Positions 28,178 to 41,478 of a stretch of 64,000 bases of DNA are shown here, piece by piece. Within the stretch, counting starts at the first letter, position 1. Every line of letters begins with the position of its first letter. The notes beneath the pieces are model-generated. The model was not told the origin of the DNA. It ran no database searches and saw only the letters and a list, made by a program, of their open reading frames with translations. The DNA lies in contig OZ243973.1 in assembly GCA_965214725.1 (NCBI GenBank), positions 1,468,079 through 1,532,078 on the forward strand. The letters run 5' to 3'. Position numbers and translations under genes: made by a program. The DNA comes from Dehalococcoidia bacterium. GTDB lineage: Bacteria; Chloroflexota; Dehalococcoidia; UBA6926.

Positions 28178-29628
28178 ACAGCGTCCGGTCCCGCCTCGCG
28201 CCGCTTGGCTCATCCCGAGCGGCCATCCTGGCGATTGTCTGCTTAAGCGTCTTCTCGACGGCGCTTGATCAGACGGTGGTGTTGGCGGCGCTGCCGACAG
28301 TCATGCTGGACCTCAAGCTCTCACTCTCTGACCTTGATACGGCCGCCTGGATCGTCACCGGGTATCTGATTGGCTACACGGTGGTCATGCCGCTTGCGGG
28401 GCGGCTGTCAGACATCCATGGCCGCGTGAGGGTGTTCCAGGCCGCGCTGCTCATCTTTGCGATTGGCTCCGCATTCGTCGCTGTCGCACCCAATTTCGGC
28501 TGGATTGTTGCCGCCCGTGTCGTACAGGCCATCGGCGGTGGCGCAACGCTGCCGATTGGGCTGGCAATGGCCATGGCGGTGGTTGCGCCCGGGCAGCGGG
28601 GCATGGCGCTCGGACTGGTGGCCGCATCGGCGGAGGCGGGCGCCGTTCTCGGCCCGATCTACGGAGGAGCGTTGATTGAGTGGGTGGGCTGGCGGCTCAT
28701 CTTCTGGCTGGACATCCCGCAGAGCCTGCTGCTCATCGCCGTGCTGGCCATTCTCCGGAATCACGCCACGCCCGGGGCGCGTATGGACTACGCAGGCACG
28801 GCGCTGCTTGGCGCGACGCTCACCGTTGTGACAATCGGCCTATCACAACGCGCGATTTTCTCATTGGATTCCGCCTTCCCCTACATCATGCTCGCGCTGG
28901 GCGCCGTGTTGGCCATCGCATTCGTCTTCATTGAGCGACGTTCAGCGCAGCCCCTCATCGCCCCCTTTCTCTACAAATCGGGAGCCTTTGTGTCTGCCAA
29001 CATGACCCAACTGATGGCGGGGATGTCTCTCATCATTGCGCTGGTCGGCGTCCCGCTTATGGCCAATACAATCATGGAGAAAGGGGACTGGGAGAGCGCC
29101 CTGCACCTGGCACGACTGATGGTGGCCATTCCGGTGGGCGCGGCGGTGGGCGGATATATCCTGCGGTGGACGCCCGCCCGTCCCATAGTCATAACGGGAT
29201 TGGTCCTTATCGGAATCGGACTGCTGTTTATGAGCGGGTGGGAGAGAGATGTTGACGAGCTCCGGTTAACCGCGCCCCTCTTGATGGCCGGGCTCGGTTT
29301 CGGGCTCATCTTGCCGCCAATCAGCGTCACAGCCCTCAGCGCCGCGCCAAGCGACTACTGGGGCACGGCCGCGTCATTGGTCACCGCTGCGCGAATGGTC
29401 GGCATGGCCATTGGGCTTGCCGCGCTCTCCGCCTGGGGCATTGAGCGGTTCTATAACCTGACGGCGGGCATGTCGATTGGGCCGTCATTGGACGAGGCGG
29501 AGGGGGCGCTTATCGGGGCAGGGGTGAGTGTCTTTCAAGACCTGTTCATGATTGCCGGACTCATCTCGCTTCTCGCCATTCTGCCCGCCTTGTTCATGAG
29601 GATGGAGCCTGTAACCGCCGACTCTTAG
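28174..29628 (+). CDS. MFS transporter, 14-TM DHA2-like (P55-like efflux pump).
   Basis: 484 aa and hydrophobic throughout. MFS motif region around GRLSDIHGRVRVF. The GTG start overlaps the lipoprotein stop (GTGA at 28174-28177). Confidence 0.7.
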   Translation: MNSVRSRLAPLGSSRAAILAIVCLSVFSTALDQTVVLAALPTVMLDLKLSLSDLDTAAWIVTGYLIGYTVVMPLAGRLSDIHGRVRVFQAALLIFAIGSAFVAVAPNFGWIVAARVVQAIGGGATLPIGLAMAMAVVAPGQRGMALGLVAASAEAGAVLGPIYGGALIEWVGWRLIFWLDIPQSLLLIAVLAILRNHATPGARMDYAGTALLGATLTVVTIGLSQRAIFSLDSAFPYIMLALGAVLAIAFVFIERRSAQPLIAPFLYKSGAFVSANMTQLMAGMSLIIALVGVPLMANTIMEKGDWESALHLARLMVAIPVGAAVGGYILRWTPARPIVITGLVLIGIGLLFMSGWERDVDELRLTAPLLMAGLGFGLILPPISVTALSAAPSDYWGTAASLVTAARMVGMAIGLAALSAWGIERFYNLTAGMSIGPSLDEAEGALIGAGVSVFQDLFMIAGLISLLAILPALFMRMEPVTADS

Positions 29629-30320
29629 GTTGAGCGGGGTGTCCATGCGCGCATGCGTTTACCGTGGAAGAATTTTCCGGTCACGCCCGGTGGGCGAGTC
29701 ACAATAGAGAGCGCGCCCTCAGCAGACCAGCGTGGATCGCCCGGCGCAGTCGGTGACATATCCGTTCGCACCCACCCCGGTGACATCGCGTTCACCGCAA
29801 CCGTGCCGCGCAGCTCGTTGGCCGTTGCGAGAGTAAGGGCGTGGAGCGCCGCCTTTGAGACACCATACGAGTTCCGGAGTCCCGGGCCGAGAATGCCCAT
29901 CGTTGATCCGATGTTGAGGACGCGCGGATGATTTGAGCGACGCAAAAGCGGCAGGAGCCGCTTCGTGCAGAAATAGGCACCATGCACATTGACCTGAAAC
30001 GTCGTCAGGAAGGCGTCATCCGGGCCTGACGTTAGCCCGGAATCGCTGTTGTCGAGAACGCCCGCATTGTTCACCAGAATGTCGACGGCGCCCCATTCGC
30101 GCTGTGCCCACGCGGCGATACGGTCGACATCCATCGGATCAGACACATCCGCCTTGAGGGTGAGCAAGGCGGGGAGATGCTCCTTCGCTTCATCGAGCTT
30201 TGCGGCGCTCCGGGACACGGCCAGGACATGCGCCCCCTCTGCCAGAAACAGCTCAGAGATCTGGTAGCCGATGCCGCGGCTGCCGCCTGTGATAATGACC
30301 CGTTGTCCTTTGAGTTTCAT
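29625..30320 (-). CDS. Short-chain dehydrogenase/reductase (SDR) family oxidoreductase.
   Basis: N-terminal Rossmann motif ITGGSRGIG, an NNAG motif (VNNAGV) and a Y...K catalytic pair (YGVSKAAL). Confidence 0.8.
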   Translation of the reverse strand: MKLKGQRVIITGGSRGIGYQISELFLAEGAHVLAVSRSAAKLDEAKEHLPALLTLKADVSDPMDVDRIAAWAQREWGAVDILVNNAGVLDNSDSGLTSGPDDAFLTTFQVNVHGAYFCTKRLLPLLRRSNHPRVLNIGSTMGILGPGLRNSYGVSKAALHALTLATANELRGTVAVNAMSPGWVRTDMSPTAPGDPRWSAEGALSIVTRPPGVTGKFFHGKRMRAWTPRST

Positions 30321-30448
30321 GCGGGATCCCCCTCTTATTCAGTGCGTCAATTGTGCGCAATTTCGGCGCAGTATGCACCCACCATTCAGTATTCATGGTC
30401 AGAGGCCGCGATCGCGCTATTGTACAATTCGCATCAAGACGGGAGGGC

Positions 30449-31387
30449 TTACGAGCTGAGGTTTGTCGGCACGCGGGTTATACGCAAGACAAAGTGCTCG
30501 GGGGTCGGGTCGATTCTTGCCGCCCGATCAGTGACCATGCCGAGCGCGTAGCCGATGGCGCTGGGGCCCCACTCAGGAAGGGAAACGGACAGGCCTTTTT
30601 CATAGGGCGACAAGGACAGCATAAACGGCCATTTTCCCCCTAAGCCTCTGGGGGCATACTTCTTAGGCAGATCAACCATCGGCCCGAGCCGGAATTGTCC
30701 GGTCTTTAGCGTCAGGCGCTCGGTAATCGTCAAGGGGTCAGCATGGAGTCCGAACAGCCCTGCGTCGAATGCGATGATCGCCTCTGTTCGCTGCGTCGAG
30801 CTGGTGTTGAACCAATTGGGAGCGGCTGTAAAGCGCTCCTTACGTGGGTCAAAGCCGGTGCCTAAGACCTGGATACCCGTCAGTTCCACTTTGCCGAATC
30901 GGCTCAACGAATCATAGAAACACTGAATGAGCGCCGGCAGGACAGGAGCCGGATCCCAAGACCGTTGATGCCATCCCGCATTGACGTAATGCTTGCCGCC
31001 GGGCGGGGGAGGAGGTGTAGGTTCGGAGGGCACAAGTGGCCCGAAGCCCACATTGACATTTATAAATCCGATGCGGTCATCGCCGTCCCCGGCAGTAGTC
31101 AACTCAGCCTCATGCATCTCCCACAGCGGCTCAGGTCTACTGCCGGCCTTGTTAGACCACCCCGTTGACCATCCCAATATTTCGGCCTGTTCTTCGAAGA
31201 CACCAAAGAAGAGATCTTCCCTTCCATCCTCCAGAATGCGGCCAGCCAAGTCATCGTCTTTCTCCAGTTTCCCAAAGGCCTCAACGTAGAGCAGGCCGGA
31301 CATAAGGAATCTACGGCCTGGGGCGACAGTTAAGCTGCGCCGCATTCGTGACTTTGAAGGGCAGGTCCCACGTATCAACAAGATCAA
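30449..31387 (-). CDS. Hypothetical protein. Start is uncertain; the internal Met at about 31303 is possible.
   Basis: Long ORF with ordinary amino-acid composition. Contains a PTPPPPPGG tract. No family was recognised. Confidence 0.4.
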   Translation of the reverse strand: MILLIRGTCPSKSRMRRSLTVAPGRRFLMSGLLYVEAFGKLEKDDDLAGRILEDGREDLFFGVFEEQAEILGWSTGWSNKAGSRPEPLWEMHEAELTTAGDGDDRIGFINVNVGFGPLVPSEPTPPPPPGGKHYVNAGWHQRSWDPAPVLPALIQCFYDSLSRFGKVELTGIQVLGTGFDPRKERFTAAPNWFNTSSTQRTEAIIAFDAGLFGLHADPLTITERLTLKTGQFRLGPMVDLPKKYAPRGLGGKWPFMLSLSPYEKGLSVSLPEWGPSAIGYALGMVTDRAARIDPTPEHFVLRITRVPTNLSS

Positions 31388-31488
31388 CGTTTACGATACT
31401 TCGGGTTTGCATTACCATCGCCTCCTCTCAGCAACTCTCCTGCATCTGTTTGGTGTGAACTCTACGCGGAACTTTTCTGCTGTCAAGC

Positions 31489-33291
31489 TTGGGAATGGCC
31501 ACAGACCGCGCTATTGTACAATTCACATCAAGACGGGAGGCTGCCCGAGCCTTGACTTCACGCGGCGAGGAACTACCGATTCAGCATGAGCCGGATGAGC
31601 CGACATCCCTTCGGGTTACGCTGGTGGTGGGCGCGCAAGGCGCCATGCTCATCATCGCCCCCACCGTGCTCAACACAACGGTGGCGATTCAGGCGTCTGC
31701 ACTCGATGACGCCTACCTCGCATGGGGAGTCTTTGCCGCTCTGGTGATTGCCGCAGCCGTGACCGGGCTGCAGGCAGTACAGTTCTGGCGATTTGGCGGG
31801 GGACACATCGTTCTCACGTCCCCGGCCGCGCTCTTTATCGCTGTCATGGCCGCCGCCGTCTCCTCCGGCGGCCCGTCGCTCTTTGCGACGCTCCTGATTA
31901 TCTCCTGCATCGTCCAGATTGGCCTCGCATTCTGGCTGCCACTCCTACGCAGGATATTCACACCCGTCGTCATCGGCACGGTGACGATGCTTATTGCCGT
32001 CAGCGTGCTGCCGATCGCATTCAGCAGCATGCAGAACCTGCCGGACGACGCGCCGACCATCTCCGGCCCGCTCATGGTGGCGGCGACGCTGAGTGTCTCG
32101 GTCATCATGACGCTGCGAGCCAGAGGGAGATGGCGCCTTGCGGGACCCGTCATCAGTATTGTGGCCGGCTACATGGTGGCAGCCGCGTTCGGTTTGGTTG
32201 AAACGGAACGTATTGGCCTCGCCCCCTGGTTTGGCATCCCGGAGGTGCCGCACATTGGCCTCGATCTGACATTCGGCACAGAGTTCTGGGCGCTCCTACC
32301 CTCATTCGCCATCCTGACCCTTGTGCTTGGCATCAAGACGATCAGTGATGGTGTTGCAATCCAACAGGGGTCGAGGCGGCGGCAGCGCGCAATCGATTTC
32401 AGACAGATTCAGGGCATGGTCAGCGTGAACGGGATCGGCATGCTGCTGGGCGGCATCTCAGGCACGCTTCCGCCCATGTCCTATTCCTCGTTCAGCCTCT
32501 CACTGATTAGCCTCACGGGAATCGCCGCCCGTCGTGTGGGAATCAGTGTTGCGATCGTGATTCTTCTCTTCGCCCTTTTTTCAAAGGTCACCGCCTTGCT
32601 GTTAACCATTCCAGGCCCGGTGCTTGGGGCATATCTCATGCTCGCCATGGGCATGCTCTTCGTCAGCGGCATGCAAACCATTCTCCGTGAGGGCCTGAAT
32701 CAGAAGCGCGTCCTCATTGTCGCGATTGCCGGAGGCATGGGCATTGGCCTGCACAACCACCCCATCATGGTGGACCTGTTTGGCAATGTCATGGGCAATC
32801 TGCTCGGCAACGGGGCAACCATCAGCGCGATCGTCGCGATTGGCCTGACATTCGTGTTGGAATCACTCGGATCACGCCTATCCCGTCTTGAGGTCACGCT
32901 GCAGACATCCTCACTGCCTGCAATCGACGAATTTCTCACGGGCCTGGCAAGCGAGTTGGGGTGGAGCGAGGCATCCACGGCACGGCTGCGTGCCGCAGGG
33001 GAGGAGGCGCTCGCCAGCCTGCAGGCGTTGGGCGACTCCTCAGAGAGCGCAACGCCACCCCGGCTCATCATCAAAGCACGGCCACAGGGGCGGGCTGTGG
33101 AGCTGGAGTTTGTCGCCACGACGAGGCAAGAGAACATTGAGGATCAGCTGGCGTATCTGACGGATGAGGGCGCCATTCCGACAACAGAAGACCTGCCGCT
33201 CCGGCTCTTGCGGTATCACTCCTCCGCCGTGCGCCACGAGAGATTCTTCGGCGTGGACATCGTCACCGTCCTGGTGGAGGGCGGAGCCTAA
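31489..33291 (+). CDS. NCS2 (xanthine/uracil permease family) nucleobase transporter with an extra ~150-aa C-terminal soluble domain. Start is uncertain; the likely start lies around 31607-31648.
   Basis: Multi-TM region. The segment VNGIGMLLGGISGTLPPMSYSSFSLSLISLTGIAARRVGISVAIVILLF aligns with the NCS2 signature region (DGLxxxLAGLFGGxPxTTFxQNxGVIxLTGVASRYVG). The C-terminal domain (RLIIKARPQGRAVELEFVATT...) was not identified. Confidence 0.55.
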   Translation: MGMATDRAIVQFTSRREAARALTSRGEELPIQHEPDEPTSLRVTLVVGAQGAMLIIAPTVLNTTVAIQASALDDAYLAWGVFAALVIAAAVTGLQAVQFWRFGGGHIVLTSPAALFIAVMAAAVSSGGPSLFATLLIISCIVQIGLAFWLPLLRRIFTPVVIGTVTMLIAVSVLPIAFSSMQNLPDDAPTISGPLMVAATLSVSVIMTLRARGRWRLAGPVISIVAGYMVAAAFGLVETERIGLAPWFGIPEVPHIGLDLTFGTEFWALLPSFAILTLVLGIKTISDGVAIQQGSRRRQRAIDFRQIQGMVSVNGIGMLLGGISGTLPPMSYSSFSLSLISLTGIAARRVGISVAIVILLFALFSKVTALLLTIPGPVLGAYLMLAMGMLFVSGMQTILREGLNQKRVLIVAIAGGMGIGLHNHPIMVDLFGNVMGNLLGNGATISAIVAIGLTFVLESLGSRLSRLEVTLQTSSLPAIDEFLTGLASELGWSEASTARLRAAGEEALASLQALGDSSESATPPRLIIKARPQGRAVELEFVATTRQENIEDQLAYLTDEGAIPTTEDLPLRLLRYHSSAVRHERFFGVDIVTVLVEGGA

Positions 33292-33597
33292 CCCGTGATC
33301 GTGCCGGGCTGCCGTCCACGCCCGGGATCACGCGGTACATCGCCGAGCGCGATCGTGTTTGAGGTGACGATCTCGTGCAATGACCGTGCGAATCCAGATT
33401 TGCTCAGCTTGGTATAATAAATTGAACAATGTTTTGAACCATGTTCGAAACAGGGAGCGCGGAAGACAGACATGCTCGTCGGCAAGACGACAGTCCGGAT
33501 TGGAGACCACATAGGGGACAAGCCCACCTAGGAGATAATTGGCATGCACCAAGAGCATACCGCCCACTCCAACTCTTGGAGACTCGGCACGAGAAGC

Positions 33598-36500
33598 ATG
33601 AATGGTTTCAGCTGGAGACTCTCCGTGGTCACGCTGGCCGTCTTGGCCCTGGTGATCACGGCGTCAGCCGGGCTGTGGCTGGTTAACCCGCCACAGGACG
33701 CTGCCGCGCAAACCGCGCTGCCGGAACTCAAGATCGCCGCCGCCACTGCCACCGTGGCCGAGGGCGGCGAGCTGAGATTCACCATCTCCGCCAGCGATCC
33801 GACGCTGGACCGCGACCTCACCGTGAACCTGCAGGTCACCGAGGACACCAGTCAGGGCCGAACCTACCTCGCCGCCTCGGAGCGCGGCTCCAAACGGGCC
33901 GTCCTCTACGCCGGCATGGAGACCGGAACCTTCACGGTCAAAACCGTCGACGACAATAACGACGAGCACGACGGCGCTGTTACCGTGACGCTGCGCCCCG
34001 GGAACGGCTACACCGTGGGCGCCACCAACGCCGCCACCGGCACGGTGACCGACAAAGACGGCACCCATGTGACTCTGACTATTGGCAAAAGCATTATTCC
34101 GGAGAACGGCGGCAAGACCGACATCACGTACCGACTCCGGGGGCCGCTGAAAGCGGGTCAAACCATCGCGTTCAAGGCTGGGACCGGACGTGATTCTAAT
34201 GGAAGACAAGGCGTCGACTGGACCCTCCAGAAGAAGCCGGGCGCCGACAACACTGGCGTGACGCTATCCGCCAGCGGGACTGTCAACGGGGTTACCGCCA
34301 CCGCGCGGAACCCGATTGTGACCATGACCGGCGCCGGCGTACGGGAAGCCAAGCTCGAGCTGACCGCCGTTGACGATACTGCGACCAGCAATCGGCGAAT
34401 CACTTGGTTTGTTGGCAGTAACGGTGGCATCAGCAACATCTTTGTGCAGACCCTCGGTGGCGCCCAGGGTAGCTTCAGGGTCAGCGGGCGCAATCACATC
34501 TATCTCATAGACGACGATAACCCTCCCGCACCCGTAATCGGCTTTTCGAGAAATGCTTTCAGCGGCAACGAGAATGGGGGCCTTGTTCAGCCGGTTGTCA
34601 ACTTTTCCAGAGTCGCCACGCCGGAATTCGAGCTGCCGCTGACCTTCACTGCCGGCACTGCAACGGAAGGCGCGGACTACCATGAGCCTGGTCCGCAAAT
34701 TGTAGATCTGTCAAGCAGTTCTAGTACTGGATTGAGTTTTGACATCCACCTAATCGATGACAAGCATAAGGAGGGCGCCGAAACCCTCACGGTCGCCATC
34801 GACATGGACGCCCTGCCGGACCTCAATGGCAATAGCGAAGGCAATGGCTGGGTTGCCGGGGATCACACGACCGCAACCATCACCATCAATGATAACGACA
34901 GCGATGTTCACGCCTCGATCAGCGCCCTCGATAACATCGCAACCGAGGGCAGCTCCAGCGACAAGGCCACCTTCCGAGTCAGCCTCGACTCCGTGCGGGG
35001 CGCGGCGGGACCGTTGACCGACGGCGACAGCGCCAGGATCAACTTTGCCTTCCTCGGCGGCGCTCATGGTAAGGACTTCGATGTCAATCTGTTGACCAAC
35101 CACCCCACGCTGTCATCCGACGGCGCTTCCGTGAAATTCAACCCCAACGCCGTCAGTCCGGCGCAGGACACGCCACTATTCGCCGACTTCGAGTTGATCG
35201 CCCGGCAGGACCTGGACGCCATCGACGATCTGGTGAGGGTGCAGCTGGCCGTAATCGTGGCCGGCGCCGGCACTCCCACGGGCTCGGCGAGCGGCGAAGC
35301 CCGCATCACCCTGCGGGACGATGACCAGAAAGCGACGGGTCTGCGCATGCGCGGAGAGCTGGATGGTCCCATTGCTGACGACGACGGCGCTTTCAGGATC
35401 GGCGAGGGCAGCGGCGAAACCTTGGTGTTCGGCCTTACGCAGGCGCCAACTGCTGCCGTGAACGCGGATGCGTCCATCATCTCCGGCAGCCACGCTGCCT
35501 CCATCACGTCCGGCGCCACCAACCAGGTGGTGGTGGGCAATAGCTTCTGCTACTCGCGCTGTCCCTGGCGAGTGTGGTTCGACTACAACTACGGCGATCC
35601 GCAGAACAGTACATTGAACGGGTATCGGATTGACATCGCCGGCACGGAGGACATCGCCACCGTGCTCACCGACGACGTGACGCTGCGGATCGCCCTCCGC
35701 TCGGCCGACAAGAACTACGACGGCGCCGTGTATGAATACCCCATCAAGGTGATTGACAACGATCAGCCCATCAGCGTGGAGCTCGTGAGCACCAGCGCGG
35801 TCGACCTGCCGGAAAGCCGCAACGGCCGCATCAGGCTGGGGGTGCGGGCATCGCGTCCGGTTCACACCGGGTTGACGCCGCAGCTGACCTGGCCCGACCC
35901 GTCGGACACCGGCCACTTCACCCCGGCCCAGGACATCGACATCGCCGTGGAACCGATACCGGTGGGCGGCGACATGGCTTACATCTACCTCGACTCCAAC
36001 GACGACAACGTCGCTGAGGCGGAAGCGTCAGCAACGGCTACCATGTCCCTGGAGGAAACGGTTGCAGGCGTAACCGTGGACCAGACGCGCAACACCTTCC
36101 TGCTCCGGCACAGCGATGATGACAATCTGAACATCCGGCTGATCAAACGCTACGCCTCGGACAACACAGTCAGCTACGCGGTGTACTTCACCCGTCCGGT
36201 GGACTATGCCATTGAGCTGGTCCTGAAGGGCAAGAACAGCAACAATGACCGCATCCTGGGCATGCCCAGCACGGTGACTCAGAATAACCCCAACCTCACC
36301 AGCCCGCACGAGTACACCATCTTCGATCCGGATCGGTACACTGCCATCATCGCGCGCACCCTAGGGGACTACACGTTCTTCGACAGCCAGGCCATCGTGG
36401 TGTCCGACGGTATTCAGCTGATCGACCACGATGACCCGGTTCCGACGACAGGTCCCCCACTGATGGCGCAAAGCAGCGAGGTGTCGCCACAGGGCACGGT

Positions 36501-37479
36501 GCGTGATTCCCTGACATCAGGCATGGGCAACGGCGGCGGCAGCCTCAATGACCGGGTAAACGCGATCAGCGTGTCCAACCTAACGGCAGACGGGTTCACC
36601 CTGGGATGGTCAGCAGCCAACGGCGCTGACAGCTACCGGGTGCGCTACTGGCAGGACGAAGACGCGGTGAGCGTCTTCCCCGTCACGGGTACGACCCACA
36701 CGGTAACCGGCCTGGATCCGGAGACGGAGTACTCGGTGCAGATCATGGCGGTGGTCAACGGCAACGTGGTCACGAGCAAGTCGAGTTCAGTGTTCACCGT
36801 AACCACTGCCGCTGCTGCTGCACCGGCGCCGACGGCCACGCCCACGCCAATACCCACAGCAACACCCACGCCGGCGCCAATACCTACGGCAACACCGACA
36901 CCGGCGCCGCTCACATCGGCGCCTCCTACGGCAACACCGGCGCCGCAAGTCTGCAATCTGCCCTCGGACGCCATCACGGTGGCCGAGGTAACCGGCTGGC
37001 GGGACGCCCTCGACCCCATCAAGGCGGCCGCGGGCGTCAAACGCTGGAACCGGGTGCTGGCCACGCTGGGCGAGGACACGGGCGCTGCGCCGATGCCGGC
37101 GGAGCTGGCCCGGCAGGTCGCCAACTGGCTCGGCAACACCCGCTGGGATCGCACAGCCCGCACCCTAGAGGCTATGGCGCAGTGCGACAACCCTTTGCCC
37201 ACACCCGCGGCAGCGCCGACGCCGACGCCGCAGGCCTGCACTCTGCCGGCTGACGCCATCACGGTGGCCGAGGTAACCGGCTGGCGGGACGCCCTCGACC
37301 CCATCAAGGCGGCCCCGGGCATCAAACGCTGGAACCGGGTGCTGGCCACGCTGGGTGAGGACACTGGCCTTACGCCGATGCCGGCGGAGCTGGCCTGGGA
37401 GGTCGCCAACTGGCTCGGGAATACCCGCTGGGACCGCACGGCGCGCACGCTGGAGGCTATGGCGCAGTGCGACAACTGA
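33598..37479 (+). CDS. Secreted multidomain protein. From N to C: Calx-beta-like domains, an FN3 domain, a Pro/Thr/Ala linker, and a tandemly duplicated ~80-aa Cys-bounded domain.
   Basis: Signal-peptide-like N-terminus MNGFSWRLSVVTLAVLALVITASAGLW, with the ATG at 33598. The FN3-like segment is VSNLTADGFTLGWSAANGADSYRVRYWQ...TEYSVQIMAV. The linker is ATPTPIPTATPTPAP. The duplicated domain runs from C(N/T)LP to AMAQCDN. Confidence 0.75.
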   Translation: MNGFSWRLSVVTLAVLALVITASAGLWLVNPPQDAAAQTALPELKIAAATATVAEGGELRFTISASDPTLDRDLTVNLQVTEDTSQGRTYLAASERGSKRAVLYAGMETGTFTVKTVDDNNDEHDGAVTVTLRPGNGYTVGATNAATGTVTDKDGTHVTLTIGKSIIPENGGKTDITYRLRGPLKAGQTIAFKAGTGRDSNGRQGVDWTLQKKPGADNTGVTLSASGTVNGVTATARNPIVTMTGAGVREAKLELTAVDDTATSNRRITWFVGSNGGISNIFVQTLGGAQGSFRVSGRNHIYLIDDDNPPAPVIGFSRNAFSGNENGGLVQPVVNFSRVATPEFELPLTFTAGTATEGADYHEPGPQIVDLSSSSSTGLSFDIHLIDDKHKEGAETLTVAIDMDALPDLNGNSEGNGWVAGDHTTATITINDNDSDVHASISALDNIATEGSSSDKATFRVSLDSVRGAAGPLTDGDSARINFAFLGGAHGKDFDVNLLTNHPTLSSDGASVKFNPNAVSPAQDTPLFADFELIARQDLDAIDDLVRVQLAVIVAGAGTPTGSASGEARITLRDDDQKATGLRMRGELDGPIADDDGAFRIGEGSGETLVFGLTQAPTAAVNADASIISGSHAASITSGATNQVVVGNSFCYSRCPWRVWFDYNYGDPQNSTLNGYRIDIAGTEDIATVLTDDVTLRIALRSADKNYDGAVYEYPIKVIDNDQPISVELVSTSAVDLPESRNGRIRLGVRASRPVHTGLTPQLTWPDPSDTGHFTPAQDIDIAVEPIPVGGDMAYIYLDSNDDNVAEAEASATATMSLEETVAGVTVDQTRNTFLLRHSDDDNLNIRLIKRYASDNTVSYAVYFTRPVDYAIELVLKGKNSNNDRILGMPSTVTQNNPNLTSPHEYTIFDPDRYTAIIARTLGDYTFFDSQAIVVSDGIQLIDHDDPVPTTGPPLMAQSSEVSPQGTVRDSLTSGMGNGGGSLNDRVNAISVSNLTADGFTLGWSAANGADSYRVRYWQDEDAVSVFPVTGTTHTVTGLDPETEYSVQIMAVVNGNVVTSKSSSVFTVTTAAAAAPAPTATPTPIPTATPTPAPIPTATPTPAPLTSAPPTATPAPQVCNLPSDAITVAEVTGWRDALDPIKAAAGVKRWNRVLATLGEDTGAAPMPAELARQVANWLGNTRWDRTARTLEAMAQCDNPLPTPAAAPTPTPQACTLPADAITVAEVTGWRDALDPIKAAPGIKRWNRVLATLGEDTGLTPMPAELAWEVANWLGNTRWDRTARTLEAMAQCDN
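36952..37476 (+). repeat. Tandem in-frame duplication of 285 nt (95 aa) encoding the C-terminal Cys-bounded domain. Copies are at 36952-37191 and 37237-37476.
   Basis: Copy 1 reads CNLPSDAITVAEVTGWRDALDPIKAAAGVKRWNRVLATLGEDTGAAPMPAELARQVANWLGNTRWDRTARTLEAMAQCDN. Copy 2 reads CTLPADAITVAEVTGWRDALDPIKAAPGIKRWNRVLATLGEDTGLTPMPAELAWEVANWLGNTRWDRTARTLEAMAQCDN. Confidence 0.85.
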
Positions 37480-38527: not shown

Positions 38528-38561
38528 GACTCTCTTGTCCCTCAGCGTTCCTCTGCTTGCT

Positions 38562-39719
38562 CTAGAGTGCGTTCTCGGACCCGAGAACCAGCGTGCACAT
38601 GACGCTTGCCATGCCACCGTTACCATTGACGAGTCCCAGGTCATTGCGCTCGATCTGCCTCACACCGGCCTTGCCCATGATCTGGCGGGCTGCCTCAACG
38701 ACGTGACGGAGGCCACCCGCTGAACCGGGCTGTCCGCCGGACAACTGGCCACCGTCCGTGTTGATGGGGAAGGTCCCGTTGTAGGTGGTGTCCGTCTCCG
38801 CAAAGAACGGTCCAATCTCACCCTTCGGCACGATCCCTGCGTCTTCCAGGGAGACTGCATGGATGATTGTGTATGCATCATAGAATTGAGCGAACTGGAT
38901 GTCACTCGGGGCGTAACCGGACATGGCGAGCGCGGTTGGCGCAGAGCGCGCAACCGGCGTGGTGGTGAGCTCCGGTCGCATCATCCCGCTTAAGCCGTCC
39001 ACCGCTGTCGCGCCGCCAAGCATGTAGGCGGGCTTGTTGAGGCTGGCCTTTGCGCGCTCTTTCGTTGTGACAATGACAGCCGCCGCGCCGGCGCACGGCA
39101 TCACACATTCCAGCAAGCGCAGCGGATAATTCACGTAGCGAGAGCTGATAACATCCTCATACGTAATCGGCTGGCCATTGAATACGGCGTTCTCATTGCC
39201 CTGAGCGTTGGCGCGTTCATTCACCGCAATGTGCGCTAACTGCTCTTGCGTTGTGCCGTAGCGATCCATGTGGCGCATGTAGACCTGTGCATAGCCGGAA
39301 TTCGCGCCGGCGGCGGGACCATACGGGAAATCGAACTCGGACGCGGGGCCGTGGGATCCCTCGGGACCATCGGGGATTGCAGGATTACGTGCCTGTCCCA
39401 TGACGACGAGGACGTAGTTTGCGAGGCCGTTCTGGACAGCCATGGAGGCAAGCAAGACAGCGGTCGCGCCGCTGGCGCCCATCATGGAGGTGCCGGTGCC
39501 GAATCGCGGGCGGATTCCAAGGTATTCCGATACGAATCCAGGGAAGATTGCTTCTCCCTCAGTAACCAGCCCGTCTATGTCATCCTTTGAGATGTGCGCA
39601 TCCTCGATGGCGAGACGGGCCGCCTGTGCCAGCAGGCCGCCCGTGCTCAGGCCGCGAACCGTTCGGCGCGACGGGAGCTCGCCGATACCGACAATTGCGG
39701 CTTCTCCTCGGAAACTCAC
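38562..39719 (-). CDS. Thiolase-like protein (SCP-x/nonspecific lipid-transfer-protein-type thiolase).
   Basis: 385 aa. N-terminus MSFRGEAAIVGIGELP. The thiolase fold is conserved to the C-terminus (...GQPGSAGGLRHVVEAARQIMGKAG...). Confidence 0.75.
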   Translation of the reverse strand: MSFRGEAAIVGIGELPSRRTVRGLSTGGLLAQAARLAIEDAHISKDDIDGLVTEGEAIFPGFVSEYLGIRPRFGTGTSMMGASGATAVLLASMAVQNGLANYVLVVMGQARNPAIPDGPEGSHGPASEFDFPYGPAAGANSGYAQVYMRHMDRYGTTQEQLAHIAVNERANAQGNENAVFNGQPITYEDVISSRYVNYPLRLLECVMPCAGAAAVIVTTKERAKASLNKPAYMLGGATAVDGLSGMMRPELTTTPVARSAPTALAMSGYAPSDIQFAQFYDAYTIIHAVSLEDAGIVPKGEIGPFFAETDTTYNGTFPINTDGGQLSGGQPGSAGGLRHVVEAARQIMGKAGVRQIERNDLGLVNGNGGMASVMCTLVLGSENAL

Positions 39720-39758
39720 GTCTCTGTCCTCCTGTTGGTGTCCGTTTCACTGATGAGA

Positions 39759-40277
39759 TCAGTTATACCTGGGGTCGTTCGCCCATGGATTCTCGGTCGG
39801 CTCCGACTCCGACCCCGGCACGGGGCCGTCTTCAATCCGCCGCCACTTGATGATTGTCCATTCAGGAGTGACGTCCTCAAAGACAGCCTCGACGCGCTGA
39901 CTCACTAAGAGCAGCGCGGGATCTTCACGGTACTCCTCCGGCGTGACATCGGCCATGTTTCCGATCATTCGAACGCCCTCATCCAGTTCGATAAGGACTT
40001 GTGCCATGGGCATAGCCTCACCAAACGTAGGGACGGCCGGCTGATAGACCGTTGTGTACGAGTGGATGCGGCCCTTGCCGCTTGCCTTCGTCCAGACCAG
40101 GTCATCGCCGTGCCCCCAACATGTGGGACACGCGTCACGCGGATAGAAGATGAAATTGTTGCAGCGCGTGCAGTTCTGGAGCCAGAGTTCATGACGCTTC
40201 GTCCCCGCCCAGAACGTGGAGGTCAACTCCGGGTTCATGGTGGGGCGTGGTACCGGCCTTCTGTATTCGCTCGTCAT
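39759..40277 (-). CDS. DUF35-family Zn-ribbon/OB-fold protein (second copy).
   Basis: MTSEYRRPVPRPTMNPELTSTFWAGTKRHELWLQNCTRCNNFIFYPRDACPTC. It is a paralog of the protein encoded at 37997..38527. Confidence 0.7.
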   Translation of the reverse strand: MTSEYRRPVPRPTMNPELTSTFWAGTKRHELWLQNCTRCNNFIFYPRDACPTCWGHGDDLVWTKASGKGRIHSYTTVYQPAVPTFGEAMPMAQVLIELDEGVRMIGNMADVTPEEYREDPALLLVSQRVEAVFEDVTPEWTIIKWRRIEDGPVPGSESEPTENPWANDPRYN

Positions 40278-40320
40278 GGCTGCCTAACTCCTAGCGGCGC
40301 TGCTCGTCCGGCTTTTTCCT

Positions 40321-41478
40321 CTAGAGTGCGTTCTCGGAACCGAGAACCAGCGTGCACATTGTGCTCGCGGTGCCGCCTCAACCATTCACCAGGCCGAGGT
40401 CATTGCGGGCGATCTGTCTCACACCCGCCTTGCCCATGATCTGGCGCGCGCCCTCGATAACGTGTCTGAACCCACCGGCGAGGCCGGGCTGTCCGCTGGA
40501 CAGCTGGCCGCCGTCTGTGTTGATGGGAAACTCGCCGTTGTAGCGCGTATCGGTTGATTCAAAGAACGGCCCAACCTCGCCCTTGGGCATCAACCCCGCA
40601 TCCTCCAGGCACACGGCATGGAGAATGGTGTATCAATCATAGAACTGGGCAAACTGCATGTCCCGCGGCGTGTAGCCGGACATGGTGAACGCCGTGGGCG
40701 CAGACCGCGCGACTGGCGTCTCGGTCAGCTTGTCACGTTGCCAGCCGGTCAAAGGATCGGTCGCGATGCCCGCGCCAAGGACGTACACCGGGCGATTCAG
40801 GCTATGCTTGGCGCGCTCTGCGGTTGTGACAATAACGGCGGCGGCGCCGGCACACGGCATCACCGTTTCAAGCAGCTTGATGGGGTAATTGATAAAACGG
40901 GAATTCATCACATCGTCATGTGTGATGGGCTGCCCCTGGAAGACGGAGTTGGGGTTCTCCAGTGTGTTGAATCGCTCGTTGACGGCTATTTGGGCCATCT
41001 GCTCTTCAGTCGTGCCGTATTCCTCCATGTGTCGGACGTACATCATGCCGTAGCCGGTATTCGCGCCGGCTGCCATACCATACGGTTCCTCAAACTCTGA
41101 CCTCGCGCTGGGAGGCCCGCCACCCTCCGGCGGAATGACCGGGTTGCGCGCCGTGGCAATGACGACGAGCACGTAGTTGGCGAGTCCGTTCTGGACGGCC
41201 ATGGAGGCGAGCGTGACGCCCGTCGCGCCACTGGCGCCCATCATGCTGGCGCCGGTCGCGAATCGTGGGCTGATTCCGAGGTACTCGGACGCAAAGGCCG
41301 GGGACACAGTCCCGCCCTCCGTAACAAGTCCGTCTATATCCGTGAAGCGCAAATGGGCGTCATGGATAGCGATGCGGGCCACGTCACCCATGAGGCCAAC
41401 CATTGAGCGGCCAAACGTGGAGCGGGTCGTCGGCAACTCCCCGATTCCGATGATCGCTGCTTCACCACGAAGACTCAT
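40321..41478 (-). pseudogene. Thiolase-like paralog with two in-frame TGA codons (40633-40635 and 40378-40380). There is no frameshift and the frame ends at a TAG at 40321-40323. It is a probable pseudogene, or a sequence error.
   Basis: The translation runs MSLRGEAAIIGIGELP...QFAQFYD*YTILHAVCLEDAGLMPKGE...LGLVNG*GGTASTMCTLVLGSENAL. It aligns with the intact paralog end to end (...FYDAYTIIHAV... / ...LVNGNGGMASVMCTLVLGSENAL). Confidence 0.6.

What the first reader, a model, noticed from the sequence alone, without database searches (positions are those of the whole stretch)
30411..31538. Two direct copies of a 35-nt element carrying a perfect 10-bp palindrome (ATTGTACAAT) bracket a hypothetical gene
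The sequence cgcgctATTGTACAATtc[g/a]catcaagacgggagg occurs at 30411-30445 and again at 31504-31538, with 1 mismatch and in the same orientation. Copy 1 also has an adjacent CGCGATCGCG palindrome. Copy 1 lies about 100 nt upstream of the SDR gene start. Copy 2 lies in the divergent promoter region between the 312-aa hypothetical gene and the NCS2 permease. Together they flank the 30449..31387 gene as direct repeats. Two readings are possible: (a) operator sites for a shared, unlinked, palindrome-binding regulator; (b) att-like or duplication scars of an inserted gene cassette. A cis-regulatory RNA leader is also possible.
Basis: seen in the sequence. Interest (0 to 1): 0.6.

Follow-up and report, generated by a model that had tools for sequence, protein, structure and literature searches.

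The report
Duplicated promoter flanking an inserted gene
The two repeats are a 46-base copy of the permease gene's own promoter and ribosome-binding site, duplicated when a 1-kb self-expressed gene of unknown function was inserted between two neighbouring genes, so they are an insertion scar and not a regulatory motif.

Summary
The repeat is real and longer than reported. A sister strain shows a 46-nt unit. In the window it lies at 31495-31540 (copy 2) and 30395-30446 (copy 1, with a strain-specific 6-nt insertion).

Copy 2 appears to be the NCS2 permease's own control region. TACAAT inside the palindrome aligns with TAGAGT/TACAGT in orthologous promoters. GGGAGG is the Shine-Dalgarno sequence 11 nt before the TTG start.

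A related Chloroflexota genome, seen in two assemblies, has the SDR and permease genes directly adjacent with nothing between them.

The 1048 nt between the copies carry a sigma-70-type promoter, a 33-codon remnant of an upstream gene, and a 284-aa (not 312-aa) gene. The same DNA occurs in other genomes in unrelated contexts without the repeat, and the homology stops within a few bases of the repeat edges.

The operator and RNA-leader readings are not: the palindrome is not conserved, nothing folds, and Rfam finds nothing.

The insert has no recombinase, terminal inverted repeats or attC site, so the insertion mechanism is unresolved.

One unexpected result: homologues of this gene are bracketed by long, locus-specific direct repeats (23-271 nt) in 13 of 68 other Chloroflexota loci, against 2 and 4 of 68 at control positions.

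The parts
31495..31540 (+). Copy 2 of the 46-nt repeat. It is the inferred working core promoter, 5'UTR and Shine-Dalgarno sequence of the NCS2 permease: weak -35-like ATGGCC 31495-31500, -10 TACAAT 31517-31522, SD GGGAGG 31535-31540.
   Evidence: TACAAT aligns with TAGAGT (L005) and TACAGT (L006), followed by GGGAG[A/G] and TTGACTTCA. 0/46 differences among window, L001 and L007. Promoter activity itself is inferred.
30395..30446 (+). Copy 1 of the repeat, 52 nt because of a 6-nt insertion. It is the duplicated permease promoter/UTR/SD and points into the 3' end of the inserted gene, with no ORF to serve.
   Evidence: It differs between strains (C->G, +6 nt, A->G in the window/L001 lineage): 8/52 alignment columns against 0/46 for copy 2.
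30407..30416 (.). Zone holding the lineage-specific 6-nt insertion (CGCGAT or an equivalent register). It creates the CGCGATCGCG palindrome and lengthens the -35/-10 spacer of copy 1 from 16 to 22 nt.
   Evidence: Alignment of the six copies. L007 copy 1 lacks it.
30419..30428 (.). ATTGTACAAT palindrome in copy 1
31513..31522 (.). ATTGTACAAT palindrome in copy 2. Its right six bases are the inferred permease -10.
30447..31494 (-). Inserted 1048-nt module lying between the two copies
   Evidence: DNA homology to L002, L003 and L004 (different genomic contexts, 87-89% identity) spans 31402-30445 plus 31496-31394. It stops within 0-3 nt of the repeat edges. It is absent from the orthologous SDR<->permease intergenic region of L005 and L090.
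30449..31303 (-). 284-aa gene of unknown function, from a family restricted to Chloroflexota/Dehalococcoidia; the cargo of the module
31311..31412 (-). 33-codon ORF with a strong SD; a remnant of the upstream partner gene ('geneA'). Only its first ~6 codons are homologous to geneA of L002 and L003, and about 480 nt are deleted relative to L002.
31459..31486 (-). The module's own sigma-70-type promoter: TTGACA, 16 nt, TAGAGT. It is conserved in L002, L003 and L007.
31552..33291 (+). NCS2 (xanthine/uracil-type) permease, 579 aa, TTG start; one of the two neighbours split by the insertion
29625..30320 (-). Short-chain dehydrogenase (SDR), the other neighbour. It is orthologous to the SDR that sits directly next to the permease in L005 and L090.
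   Evidence: (75-77% aa identity)

Best explanation
The two copies are a 46-bp target duplication left by the insertion of a 1048-bp, self-expressed gene module into the short divergent intergenic region between an SDR gene and an NCS2 permease gene.

Shown:
- In the closest relative with a different arrangement, the SDR and permease are adjacent (163-nt spacer) and the module is absent.
- The same module DNA sits in other genomes in unrelated contexts without the repeat, and homology ends at the repeat edges.
- The duplicated segment is collinear with the permease's -10, 5'UTR and Shine-Dalgarno sequence in orthologous loci.

Inferred:
- Copy 2 (permease side) is the working permease promoter and ribosome-binding site. 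The palindrome ATTGTACAAT is the -10 hexamer TACAAT with ATTG in front of it, not a dedicated protein-binding site.
- Copy 1 is a by-product that points antisense into the 3' end of the inserted gene. It is decaying: a 6-bp insertion in the -35/-10 spacer and two substitutions in this lineage.
- The duplication let both neighbours keep the control sequence they had shared.

Mechanism of insertion (inferred, least certain). No transposase, integrase, terminal inverted repeat or attC site is present. I therefore favour a generic recombination route over a dedicated element. One option is a single-crossover (Campbell or 'ends-in') integration of a DNA circle or fragment that already carried a near-identical copy of the 46-bp segment. 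The other is a replication or repair template switch that left the target, copied the module, and returned 46 bp behind the exit point.
For: - Repeat real and non-random. Its 46-nt extent and the strain comparison.
- Empty site: L005 (GCA_034428515.1; permease 80% aa, SDR 75% aa) and, independently, L090 have the SDR divergent and adjacent to the permease. The window's spacer with the module and one copy removed is 131 nt. It aligns with L005's 163 nt at both ends.
- Promoter identity...TATTGTACAATTCACATCAAGACGGGAGGCTGCCCGAGCCTTGACTTCA in the window...AATGGTAGAGTTCTGGCAGGGAGATTACCTGAATTTTGACTTCA in L005...GGTGGTACAGTTCCTAGTAGGGAGAATGCCTGGAATTTGACTTCA in L006.
- Module mobility: homologues at 81-83% aa identity (87-89% DNA) in L002, L003 and L004 have different neighbours and no 37-mer even at <=10 mismatches. 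Homology to them stops at window 30445 and ~31496, within 0-3 nt of the repeat edges.
- Same spot variable elsewhere: L006 has four other genes between the SDR and permease orthologues.
- Copy 2 is invariant and copy 1 variable among strains that are 98.3% identical overall.
- The two differences between copies in L007 both lie in the leftmost 11 of 46 nt. This is what a crossover inside the identical 35 nt between slightly diverged partners would leave.
- No TIRs at the insert ends (score at the shuffle median) and no integron core sites. No recombinase homologue in the window.
Against: - No near-identical (>95% ANI) genome with the empty site was found. The empty site comes from a relative whose proteins are only ~75-80% identical, and its intergenic DNA aligns only in blocks. 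The exact pre-insertion sequence is therefore reconstructed, not observed.
- The 22-mer from the repeat has no exact match in the GTDB representative genomes, JGI metagenomes or IMG/VR. Its genome-wide copy number in the source organism could not be measured.
- A 46-bp duplication is far longer than any classical transposase produces, and the immediate donor is unknown, so the mechanism is not demonstrated.
- The promoter assignment rests on alignment and consensus. The -35 is weak (ATGGCC), no transcription data exist, and one search's scan did not flag it as a canonical promoter.
- The perfect palindrome could still also be bound by a regulator at the permease promoter.
Confidence: 0.78

Rival explanations
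1. The copies are attL/attR sites of a small mobilisable cassette (CIME-like). A site-specific recombinase encoded elsewhere, or the 284-aa protein itself, recognises the segment, perhaps through the ATTGTACAAT palindrome. It integrates or excises the module as a circle carrying one copy.
For: - Direct repeats exactly bound the module.
- A perfect palindrome lies inside them.
- Homologues of the gene are bracketed by long locus-specific direct repeats in 13/68 other loci, against 2/68 and 4/68 at control positions. One of these is the 3' 41 nt of tRNA-Asn, in three copies (L025). Others are the 3' ends of upstream genes (L019/L088, L081).
- The smallest bracketed units contain only this ORF (L019, 835 nt).
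- The L003 context carries a large serine recombinase.
Against: - No recombinase is found in the 64-kb window by tblastn with tyrosine and serine recombinases. There are no Pfam, PHROG or PADLOC hits for the 284-aa protein.
- Repeat lengths (23-271 nt), repeat sequences and insert contents differ from locus to locus, with no shared motif and no terminal repeats. This does not suit a single dedicated recombinase.
- The palindrome is not found in the other loci.
Confidence: 0.13
2. The copies are two operator sites for one palindrome-binding transcription factor that co-regulates the SDR, the hypothetical gene and the permease. Their similarity is kept by selection on binding.
For: - A perfect 10-bp palindrome overlaps the permease -10, which is a classical repressor position.
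- Loosely similar ATTG-Nx-CAAT palindromes lie upstream of the SDR (AATTGTGCGCAATT, 30349-30362) and upstream of the 1311-aa gene (ATTGAACAAT, 33421-33430).
- The palindrome itself is intact in all six copies from the three strains.
Against: - Identity extends 36 nt beyond the palindrome, on both sides and asymmetrically. It includes a 5'UTR and SD that are meaningless at copy 1.
- The palindrome is absent from orthologous permease promoters at 62-81% protein identity.
- Copy 1 accumulates changes, including a 6-nt indel next to the palindrome, while copy 2 does not.
- There is no further exact copy in 64 kb.
- The empty-site and module-mobility data explain the duplication without any selection.
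Confidence: 0.06
3. The module is ancestral at this position and the relatives lost it. The repeat arose by a local duplication of the permease promoter unrelated to any insertion.
For: - Direct repeats promote deletion, so empty sites can be secondary. Flanking repeats of small variable segments are often read this way (PMC2884548).
- Only one lineage with the empty arrangement was recovered (L005 and L090).
Against: - The module's closest relatives (81-83% aa) lie in unrelated contexts.
- Homology ends at the repeat edges.
- The module is a truncated sub-segment of a larger conserved block in L002 and L003 (85-aa gene, geneA, geneB).
- The repeat copies are almost identical, which implies a recent origin, whereas the SDR and permease orthologues are only 75-80% identical.
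- L006 has different genes in the same gap.
Confidence: 0.03

Closest known systems
Small variable segments or indels flanked by direct repeats, attributed to illegitimate or homology-facilitated illegitimate recombination (Touzain et al. 2010, PMC2884548)
   Same: A segment of about one gene is present or absent between otherwise syntenic genes. It is bounded by direct repeats and has no mobile-element machinery.
   Different: In that survey most such repeats were below 30 bp and were read mainly as deletion substrates. Here the repeat is 46 bp, corresponds to a whole core promoter plus RBS, and the polarity (insertion) is supported by the module's presence elsewhere.
Campbell-type integration products (attL/attR of integrative islands; integrase-less CIMEs). 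From general knowledge.
   Same: Direct repeats of tens of bases flank the inserted DNA. One repeat restores the function of the interrupted target. A family member (L025) sits behind a tRNA-Asn whose 3' 41 nt are repeated.
   Different: No integrase in or near the insert. The target here is a promoter/5'UTR, not a tRNA or a gene's 3' end. The insert is a single gene with its own promoter. No conserved att core exists across family loci.
Transposon or IS target-site duplication. From general knowledge.
   Same: The target sequence is duplicated in direct orientation on both sides of the inserted DNA.
   Different: TSDs of known bacterial transposases are short and of fixed length (about 2-15 bp). 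Here it is 46 bp, and 23-271 bp in relatives. There is no transposase and there are no terminal inverted repeats.
Phage 'morons' and other self-contained promoter-plus-gene insertions. From general knowledge.
   Same: A compact unit with its own sigma-70-type promoter and one ORF is inserted between two genes that are adjacent in relatives.
   Different: No phage context, and no relatives in IMG/VR or PHROGs. Morons are not usually flanked by long target duplications.
Transposed non-transposon genes flanked by repeats in Arabidopsis (PMC2869330, seen; title and abstract only)
   Same: Ordinary genes relocated to new sites and flanked by direct repeats; from general knowledge, such flanking repeats are usually put down to double-strand-break repair.
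   Different: That is a eukaryotic system. Nothing comparable has, to my knowledge, been described as a recurrent property of one bacterial gene family.

Membership tests
IS/transposon with target-site duplication | Transposase gene inside the element | tested here: not met
IS/transposon with target-site duplication | Terminal inverted repeats at the element ends | tested here: not met
   Local alignment of the first 60 nt against the reverse complement of the last 60 nt scores 6, with a shuffle median of 7. No inverted pair at the ends.
IS/transposon with target-site duplication | Short duplication of fixed length | tested here: not met
   46 bp here. 23-271 bp in other loci of the gene family.
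Integron gene cassette | attC site with R''/R' core sites (RYYYAAC / GTTRRRY) and a foldable imperfect palindrome at the cassette's 3' end | tested here: not met
   No core-site match within 30 nt of either copy. Copy regions fold no better than shuffles on either strand, z +0.6 to +1.4.
Integron gene cassette | Promoterless cassette next to intI/attI or inside an attC array | tested here: not met
   The module has its own TTGACA-16-TAGAGT promoter. No tyrosine recombinase homologue in the window.
Site-specific integrative element (attL/attR) | Direct repeats exactly bounding the inserted DNA | tested here: met
Site-specific integrative element (attL/attR) | Cognate integrase or recombinase in or beside the element | tested here: not met
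   tblastn of a tyrosine and a large serine recombinase against the window gives only E>1 hits. Pfam of the neighbours shows SDR, permease, MFS, LppX and MMPL. A recombinase elsewhere in the genome cannot be tested.
Site-specific integrative element (attL/attR) | Excision to a circle and an empty site in the population | not testable with these tools
   Needs raw reads or PCR. Both strains in sample ERZ25070917 carry the insertion.
Transcription-factor operator pair / regulon | Palindromic site in promoter regions | tested here: met
   ATTGTACAAT at 30419-30428 and 31513-31522
Transcription-factor operator pair / regulon | Site conserved in orthologous promoters | tested here: not met
   L005/L090 have AATGGTAGAGTT and L006 has GGTGGTACAGTT at the aligned position. 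17 further orthologues show no such palindrome.
Transcription-factor operator pair / regulon | Similarity confined to the binding site, with flanks free to vary | tested here: not met
   Identity covers 46 nt including the 5'UTR and SD.
Transcription-factor operator pair / regulon | Further sites elsewhere in the genome | tested here: inconclusive
   No other exact copy in the 64 kb. The source genome is not in the searchable collections.
cis-regulatory RNA leader / riboswitch | Match to a known RNA family, or a stable conserved structure | tested here: not met
   Rfam at E<=1 over 29000-34000 gives 0 hits. Fold z-scores are positive. The inferred 5'UTR is only about 22 nt.
Dispersed repeat (REP/MITE/CRISPR-like) | Many copies or an array | tested here: not met
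   Two copies in the window with up to 3 mismatches allowed. 0 hits for the 22-mer in three public collections.

The most novel reading that the evidence does not exclude
The 284-aa gene family may be the cargo, or conceivably the agent, of an undescribed way of moving single genes in Chloroflexota. In this reading, insertion regularly duplicates tens to hundreds of bases of the target: 23-271 nt, often the 3' end of the upstream gene, a tRNA 3' end, or the start or promoter of the downstream gene. The neighbours therefore stay intact.

The inserts have no transposase, integrase, terminal repeats or attC site. In three independent events the right-hand repeat begins 0-2 nt after the family gene's stop codon (window; L019/L088; L081). 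In L016 it begins 1 nt after the stop codon of a second inserted gene. The window would then be one instance of a general 'duplicative gene-cassette insertion' process.
Probability: 0.18. Interest if true: 0.8.

Novelty: new member of a known kind. Interest (0 to 1): 0.42.

Why it matters
For annotating this locus, the result removes a false regulatory lead. The palindrome is a promoter -10 that was copied, not an operator. The '312-aa gene' is a 284-aa horizontally moved gene preceded by the stump of its former partner gene.

More generally, it is a cleanly resolved case of how a compact genome takes a foreign gene into a 131-nt divergent control region without silencing either neighbour: the 46 bp holding the permease's promoter and RBS, to which the SDR was also adjacent, were duplicated.

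If the wider pattern holds, it would point to a route of gene gain in Dehalococcoidia/SAR202-type bacteria that current mobile-element finders do not detect. The pattern is that this gene family is bracketed by long, locus-specific target duplications about four times more often than matched control positions.

Tried and rejected
- Rfam scan of 29000-34000 at E<=1: nothing.
- RNA folding of both copies on both strands: not better than shuffles. The RNA leader and terminator ideas were dropped.
- Exact-product look-ups of the window's 312-aa and 284-aa proteins: not on record. The source genome itself could not be retrieved.
- 22-mer ATTGTACAATTCNCATCAAGAC scanned in GTDB representative genomes, JGI metagenomes and IMG/VR: 0 hits each (one search failed and was repeated). 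No genome-wide copy count and no near-identical empty site could be obtained.
- Integron or attC idea, prompted by the array of small same-strand ORFs in L003: no core sites, no foldable palindrome, and the module has its own promoter. Rejected.
- Transposon idea: no TIRs in this insert or in nine other repeat-bracketed inserts.
- Second empty site for the L019-type insertion: L088 carries the same insertion and L089 is not syntenic. Inconclusive.
- Junction microhomology: a GCTCG match 5 nt outside the repeat, and CCCTC-like similarity between the module's end in L002/L003 and the target, were seen by eye. This was post hoc, and without the true donor I do not rely on it.
- Isolated repeat pairs elsewhere in the family loci: L065 is a tyrosine recombinase with a duplicated 3' end, and L029 lies beside a large serine recombinase. 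Recombinases do exist in these islands, but none is linked to the window's insertion.
Full report
**1. The observation**

The sequence CGCGCTATTGTACAATTC[G/A]CATCAAGACGGGAGG is present at 30413-30446 and 31507-31540. There is no third copy at up to 3 mismatches, and none appeared in 100 shuffles. The repeat finder reports 37 nt at 95% identity with 1094-nt spacing. ATTGTACAAT occurs only inside these two copies.

Two contigs from a public metagenome (ERZ25070917: L001 and L007) are about 98.3-98.5% identical to the window over 10 kb. Both carry the same structure, so it is not an assembly artefact.

L007 shows that the unit is really 46 nt: ATGG[T/C]CACAG[G/A]CCGCGCTATTGTACAATTCACATCAAGACGGGAGG. 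The window's copy 1 (30395-30446) has an extra 6 nt, which creates the 'adjacent CGCGATCGCG palindrome', plus two substitutions that L007 lacks.

**2. The genes**

- SDR: 29625-30320 on the minus strand.
- The bracketed ORF is 284 aa (30449-31303), not 312 aa. All 48 homologues are about 220-293 aa and align to 88-91% of the longer ORF.
- Upstream of it lies a 33-codon ORF (31412-31311) with a strong GAGGAGG Shine-Dalgarno sequence.
- Further upstream is a canonical promoter, TTGACA-16-TAGAGT (31486-31459, minus strand).
- The permease is 579 aa from TTG 31552. Homologues are 579 aa at 100% coverage, and orthologues start with TTG or GTG at the aligned position.
- The organism is a Chloroflexota/Dehalococcoidia bacterium, judged from the sources of the nearest homologues.

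**3. What copy 2 is**

Aligned on the start codon, the orthologous permease leaders read as follows:

- Window: TATTG-TACAAT-tcacatcaagac-GGGAGG-ctgcccgagcc-TTGACTTCA
- L005: CAATGG-TAGAGT-tctggca-GGGAGA-ttacctgaatt-TTGACTTCA
- L006: CGGTGG-TACAGT-tcctagta-GGGAGA-atgcctggaat-TTGACTTCA

So the right half of the palindrome corresponds to the -10 hexamer. GGGAGG is the ribosome-binding site, 11 nt before the start codon. The palindromic left half (ATTG) is specific to this lineage.

The 46-mer therefore runs from a weak -35-like ATGGCC to the Shine-Dalgarno sequence. That is the permease's whole core promoter, 5'UTR (about 22 nt) and RBS. The promoter function is inferred from alignment and consensus, not measured.

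**4. Empty site**

L005 is from GCA_034428515.1, with a permease 80% and an SDR 75% identical to the window's. In L005 the SDR and permease are divergent and directly adjacent, separated by 163 nt. An independent metagenome contig, L090, shows the same arrangement.

Removing the module and one repeat copy from the window leaves 131 nt. This aligns with the L005 spacer at the SDR-proximal block (GCGTCAA) and at the permease-proximal block.

In another relative, L006, four unrelated genes occupy the same gap. The spot is variable.

**5. The bracketed DNA is a discrete, movable module**

Homologues of the 284-aa gene at 81-83% aa identity (87-89% DNA) lie in L002, L003 and L004. Their neighbours are quite different: a PKS and sulfate transporter in one, GmrSD and a large serine recombinase in another. 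None has the repeat, even at 10 mismatches.

DNA homology to the window covers 31402-30445. A further piece, 31496-31394, contains the promoter, the SD and the first ~6 codons of a partner gene, 'geneA'. Homology stops within 0-3 nt of the inner edges of the two copies.

In L002 geneA is intact at 128 aa. In the window about 480 nt of it are missing, leaving the 33-codon ORF.

The insert (30447-31494, 1048 nt) has no terminal inverted repeats and no integron core sites. The window has no recognisable tyrosine or serine recombinase.

**6. Behaviour of the two copies**

Across the three strains, copy 2 is identical (0/46). Copy 1 differs in 8 of 52 alignment columns. The 6-nt insertion lengthens the -35/-10 spacer of copy 1 from 16 to 22 nt.

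Copy 1 points into the 3' end of the inserted gene, and no ORF follows its Shine-Dalgarno sequence. This fits a functional copy 2 and a drifting, probably inert or inactivated, copy 1. The numbers are small.

In L007 the only two differences between the copies lie in the leftmost 11 nt.

**7. Rivals**

*Operator pair.* The palindrome is real and sits on a -10. However:

- Identity extends 36 nt beyond it.
- It is not conserved in any of about 19 orthologous leaders.
- Copy 1 is not constrained.

*RNA element.* No Rfam hit and no structure.

*Ancestral module with loss in relatives.* This is contradicted by the module's foreign contexts and by the near-identity of the copies.

*attL/attR of a mobilisable cassette.* This cannot be excluded, but no recombinase, core motif or terminal structure supports it.

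**8. Mechanism**

What is shown is an insertion with a 46-bp duplication of the target. How it happened is inferred. Dedicated transposases give short, fixed duplications, so I favour one of two routes:

- (i) Single-crossover ('ends-in' or Campbell) integration of a circle or fragment that already carried a near-identical 46-mer. The clustered differences at one end of the copies fit this.
- (ii) A replication or repair template switch that copied the module and re-entered the target 46 bp behind its exit point.

Small variable segments flanked by direct repeats, attributed to illegitimate or homology-facilitated recombination, are a known class (PMC2884548).

**9. Wider pattern (unexpected)**

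The family occurs in at least 148 Chloroflexota genomes. In 68 full-length loci, direct repeats bracket the family gene in 13. At matched control positions 2.5 kb upstream and downstream, the counts are 2 and 4.

The clean cases have sharply bounded, locus-specific repeats:

| Locus | Repeat | What is duplicated |
|---|---|---|
| L019 | 64 nt | 3' end of an HMGL-like gene; the insert is the ORF only, 835 nt |
| L081 | 103 nt | 3' end of a luciferase-like monooxygenase |
| L043 | ~149 nt | 5' start of a cupin gene |
| L016 | 43 nt | SD plus the start of the next gene |
| L025 | 41 nt, three copies | 3' end of tRNA-Asn |
| L010 | 25 nt | not determined |
| L037 | 46 nt | not determined |
| L061 | 271 nt | part of a flanking ORF (both copies lie inside ORFs) |
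| L071 | 86 nt | not determined |

Other features of the pattern:

- The L019 insertion is shared with L088. There the two copies are only 78% identical, against 98% in L019.
- None of these inserts has terminal inverted repeats.
- The gene has no conserved neighbour. The commonest neighbouring family appears in 13 of 68 loci.
- In the window, outside a giant repeat protein, ours is the only isolated repeat pair of this kind.

This suggests the gene relocates often and that insertion with long target duplication is recurrent. Whether that reflects a dedicated mechanism or a general mode of gene gain in these genomes is open.

**10. Verdict**

The feature is an insertion scar: a duplicated permease promoter and RBS flanking a horizontally moved, self-expressed gene. 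It is a new example of a known kind of event. It is notable for the length and functional content of the duplication, and for the recurrent association of this gene family with such duplications.

Noticed in passing
L008-L087 (for example L019 4932-4995/5831-5894, L081 4734-4836/5849-5951, L025 4775/6268/6476, L043 4817-4965/5810-5958): Homologues of the 284-aa gene are bracketed by long, locus-specific direct repeats in 13 of 68 loci, against 2 and 4 of 68 at matched control positions. The repeats are often the 3' end of the upstream gene, a tRNA-Asn 3' end, or the start of the downstream gene. The inserts have no terminal inverted repeats.
   Followed up: partly
window 31311-31412 (-): A 33-codon ORF with a strong Shine-Dalgarno sequence is the stump of a partner gene (128-194 aa in L002 and L003). 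It ends 8 nt before the 284-aa gene's ATG, which itself has no Shine-Dalgarno sequence. This suggests translational coupling has been retained.
   Followed up: partly
L006 1964-6000: In another relative, four unrelated genes (PLP-dependent decarboxylase, ACT-domain protein, DUF1330, a second NCS2 permease) lie between the SDR and permease orthologues. This intergenic region has been hit by insertions more than once.
   Followed up: partly
window 30349-30362: A second, imperfect palindrome AATTGTGCGCAATT lies 30-40 nt upstream of the SDR start codon. The aligned region in L005 and L006 reads CATTGAAC...GCGCATTGG.
   Followed up: no
window 33411-33430: TATAAT followed by ATTGAACAAT (one mismatch from the palindrome) lies in the intergenic region upstream of the 1311-aa fn3/Calx-beta gene.
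   Followed up: no
window 1 to about 24900: A giant, highly repetitive coding region with ~705-nt periodic repeats. The corresponding gene call in L001 runs off the locus and is listed as 12,436 aa.
   Followed up: no
window 36937-37476 and 38560-41283: A 255-nt direct repeat at 285-nt spacing lies inside the 3' part of the 1311-aa gene. Several 41-66-nt matches at a constant 1759-nt spacing suggest tandem paralogous genes.
   Followed up: no
L003 4150-6870 (= L008): A tandem duplication of a ~1.6-kb geneA-geneB unit (74-86% identity), with one geneB copy apparently degraded. A large serine recombinase homologue lies upstream at L003 2579-1419 (-).
   Followed up: partly
L019 4932-5894 versus L088 3160-4160: The same insertion is present in two genomes that are ~81% identical. 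The flanking repeats are 98% identical in L019 but only 78% in L088. Either gene conversion is keeping the copies alike in one lineage, or the two copies were already diverged when inserted.
   Followed up: no
L019 5990-6130: Three tandem ~55-nt repeats (…CTTGATCTTTACGAACGGGAAAGGCACTCGCTAACCGTACCGAGCAGCCC…) lie just downstream of the second repeat copy.
   Followed up: no
L065 6066-7382: A 317-aa tyrosine recombinase gene lies immediately downstream of the family gene. A 104-nt copy of the recombinase's own 3' end sits upstream of its start.
   Followed up: partly
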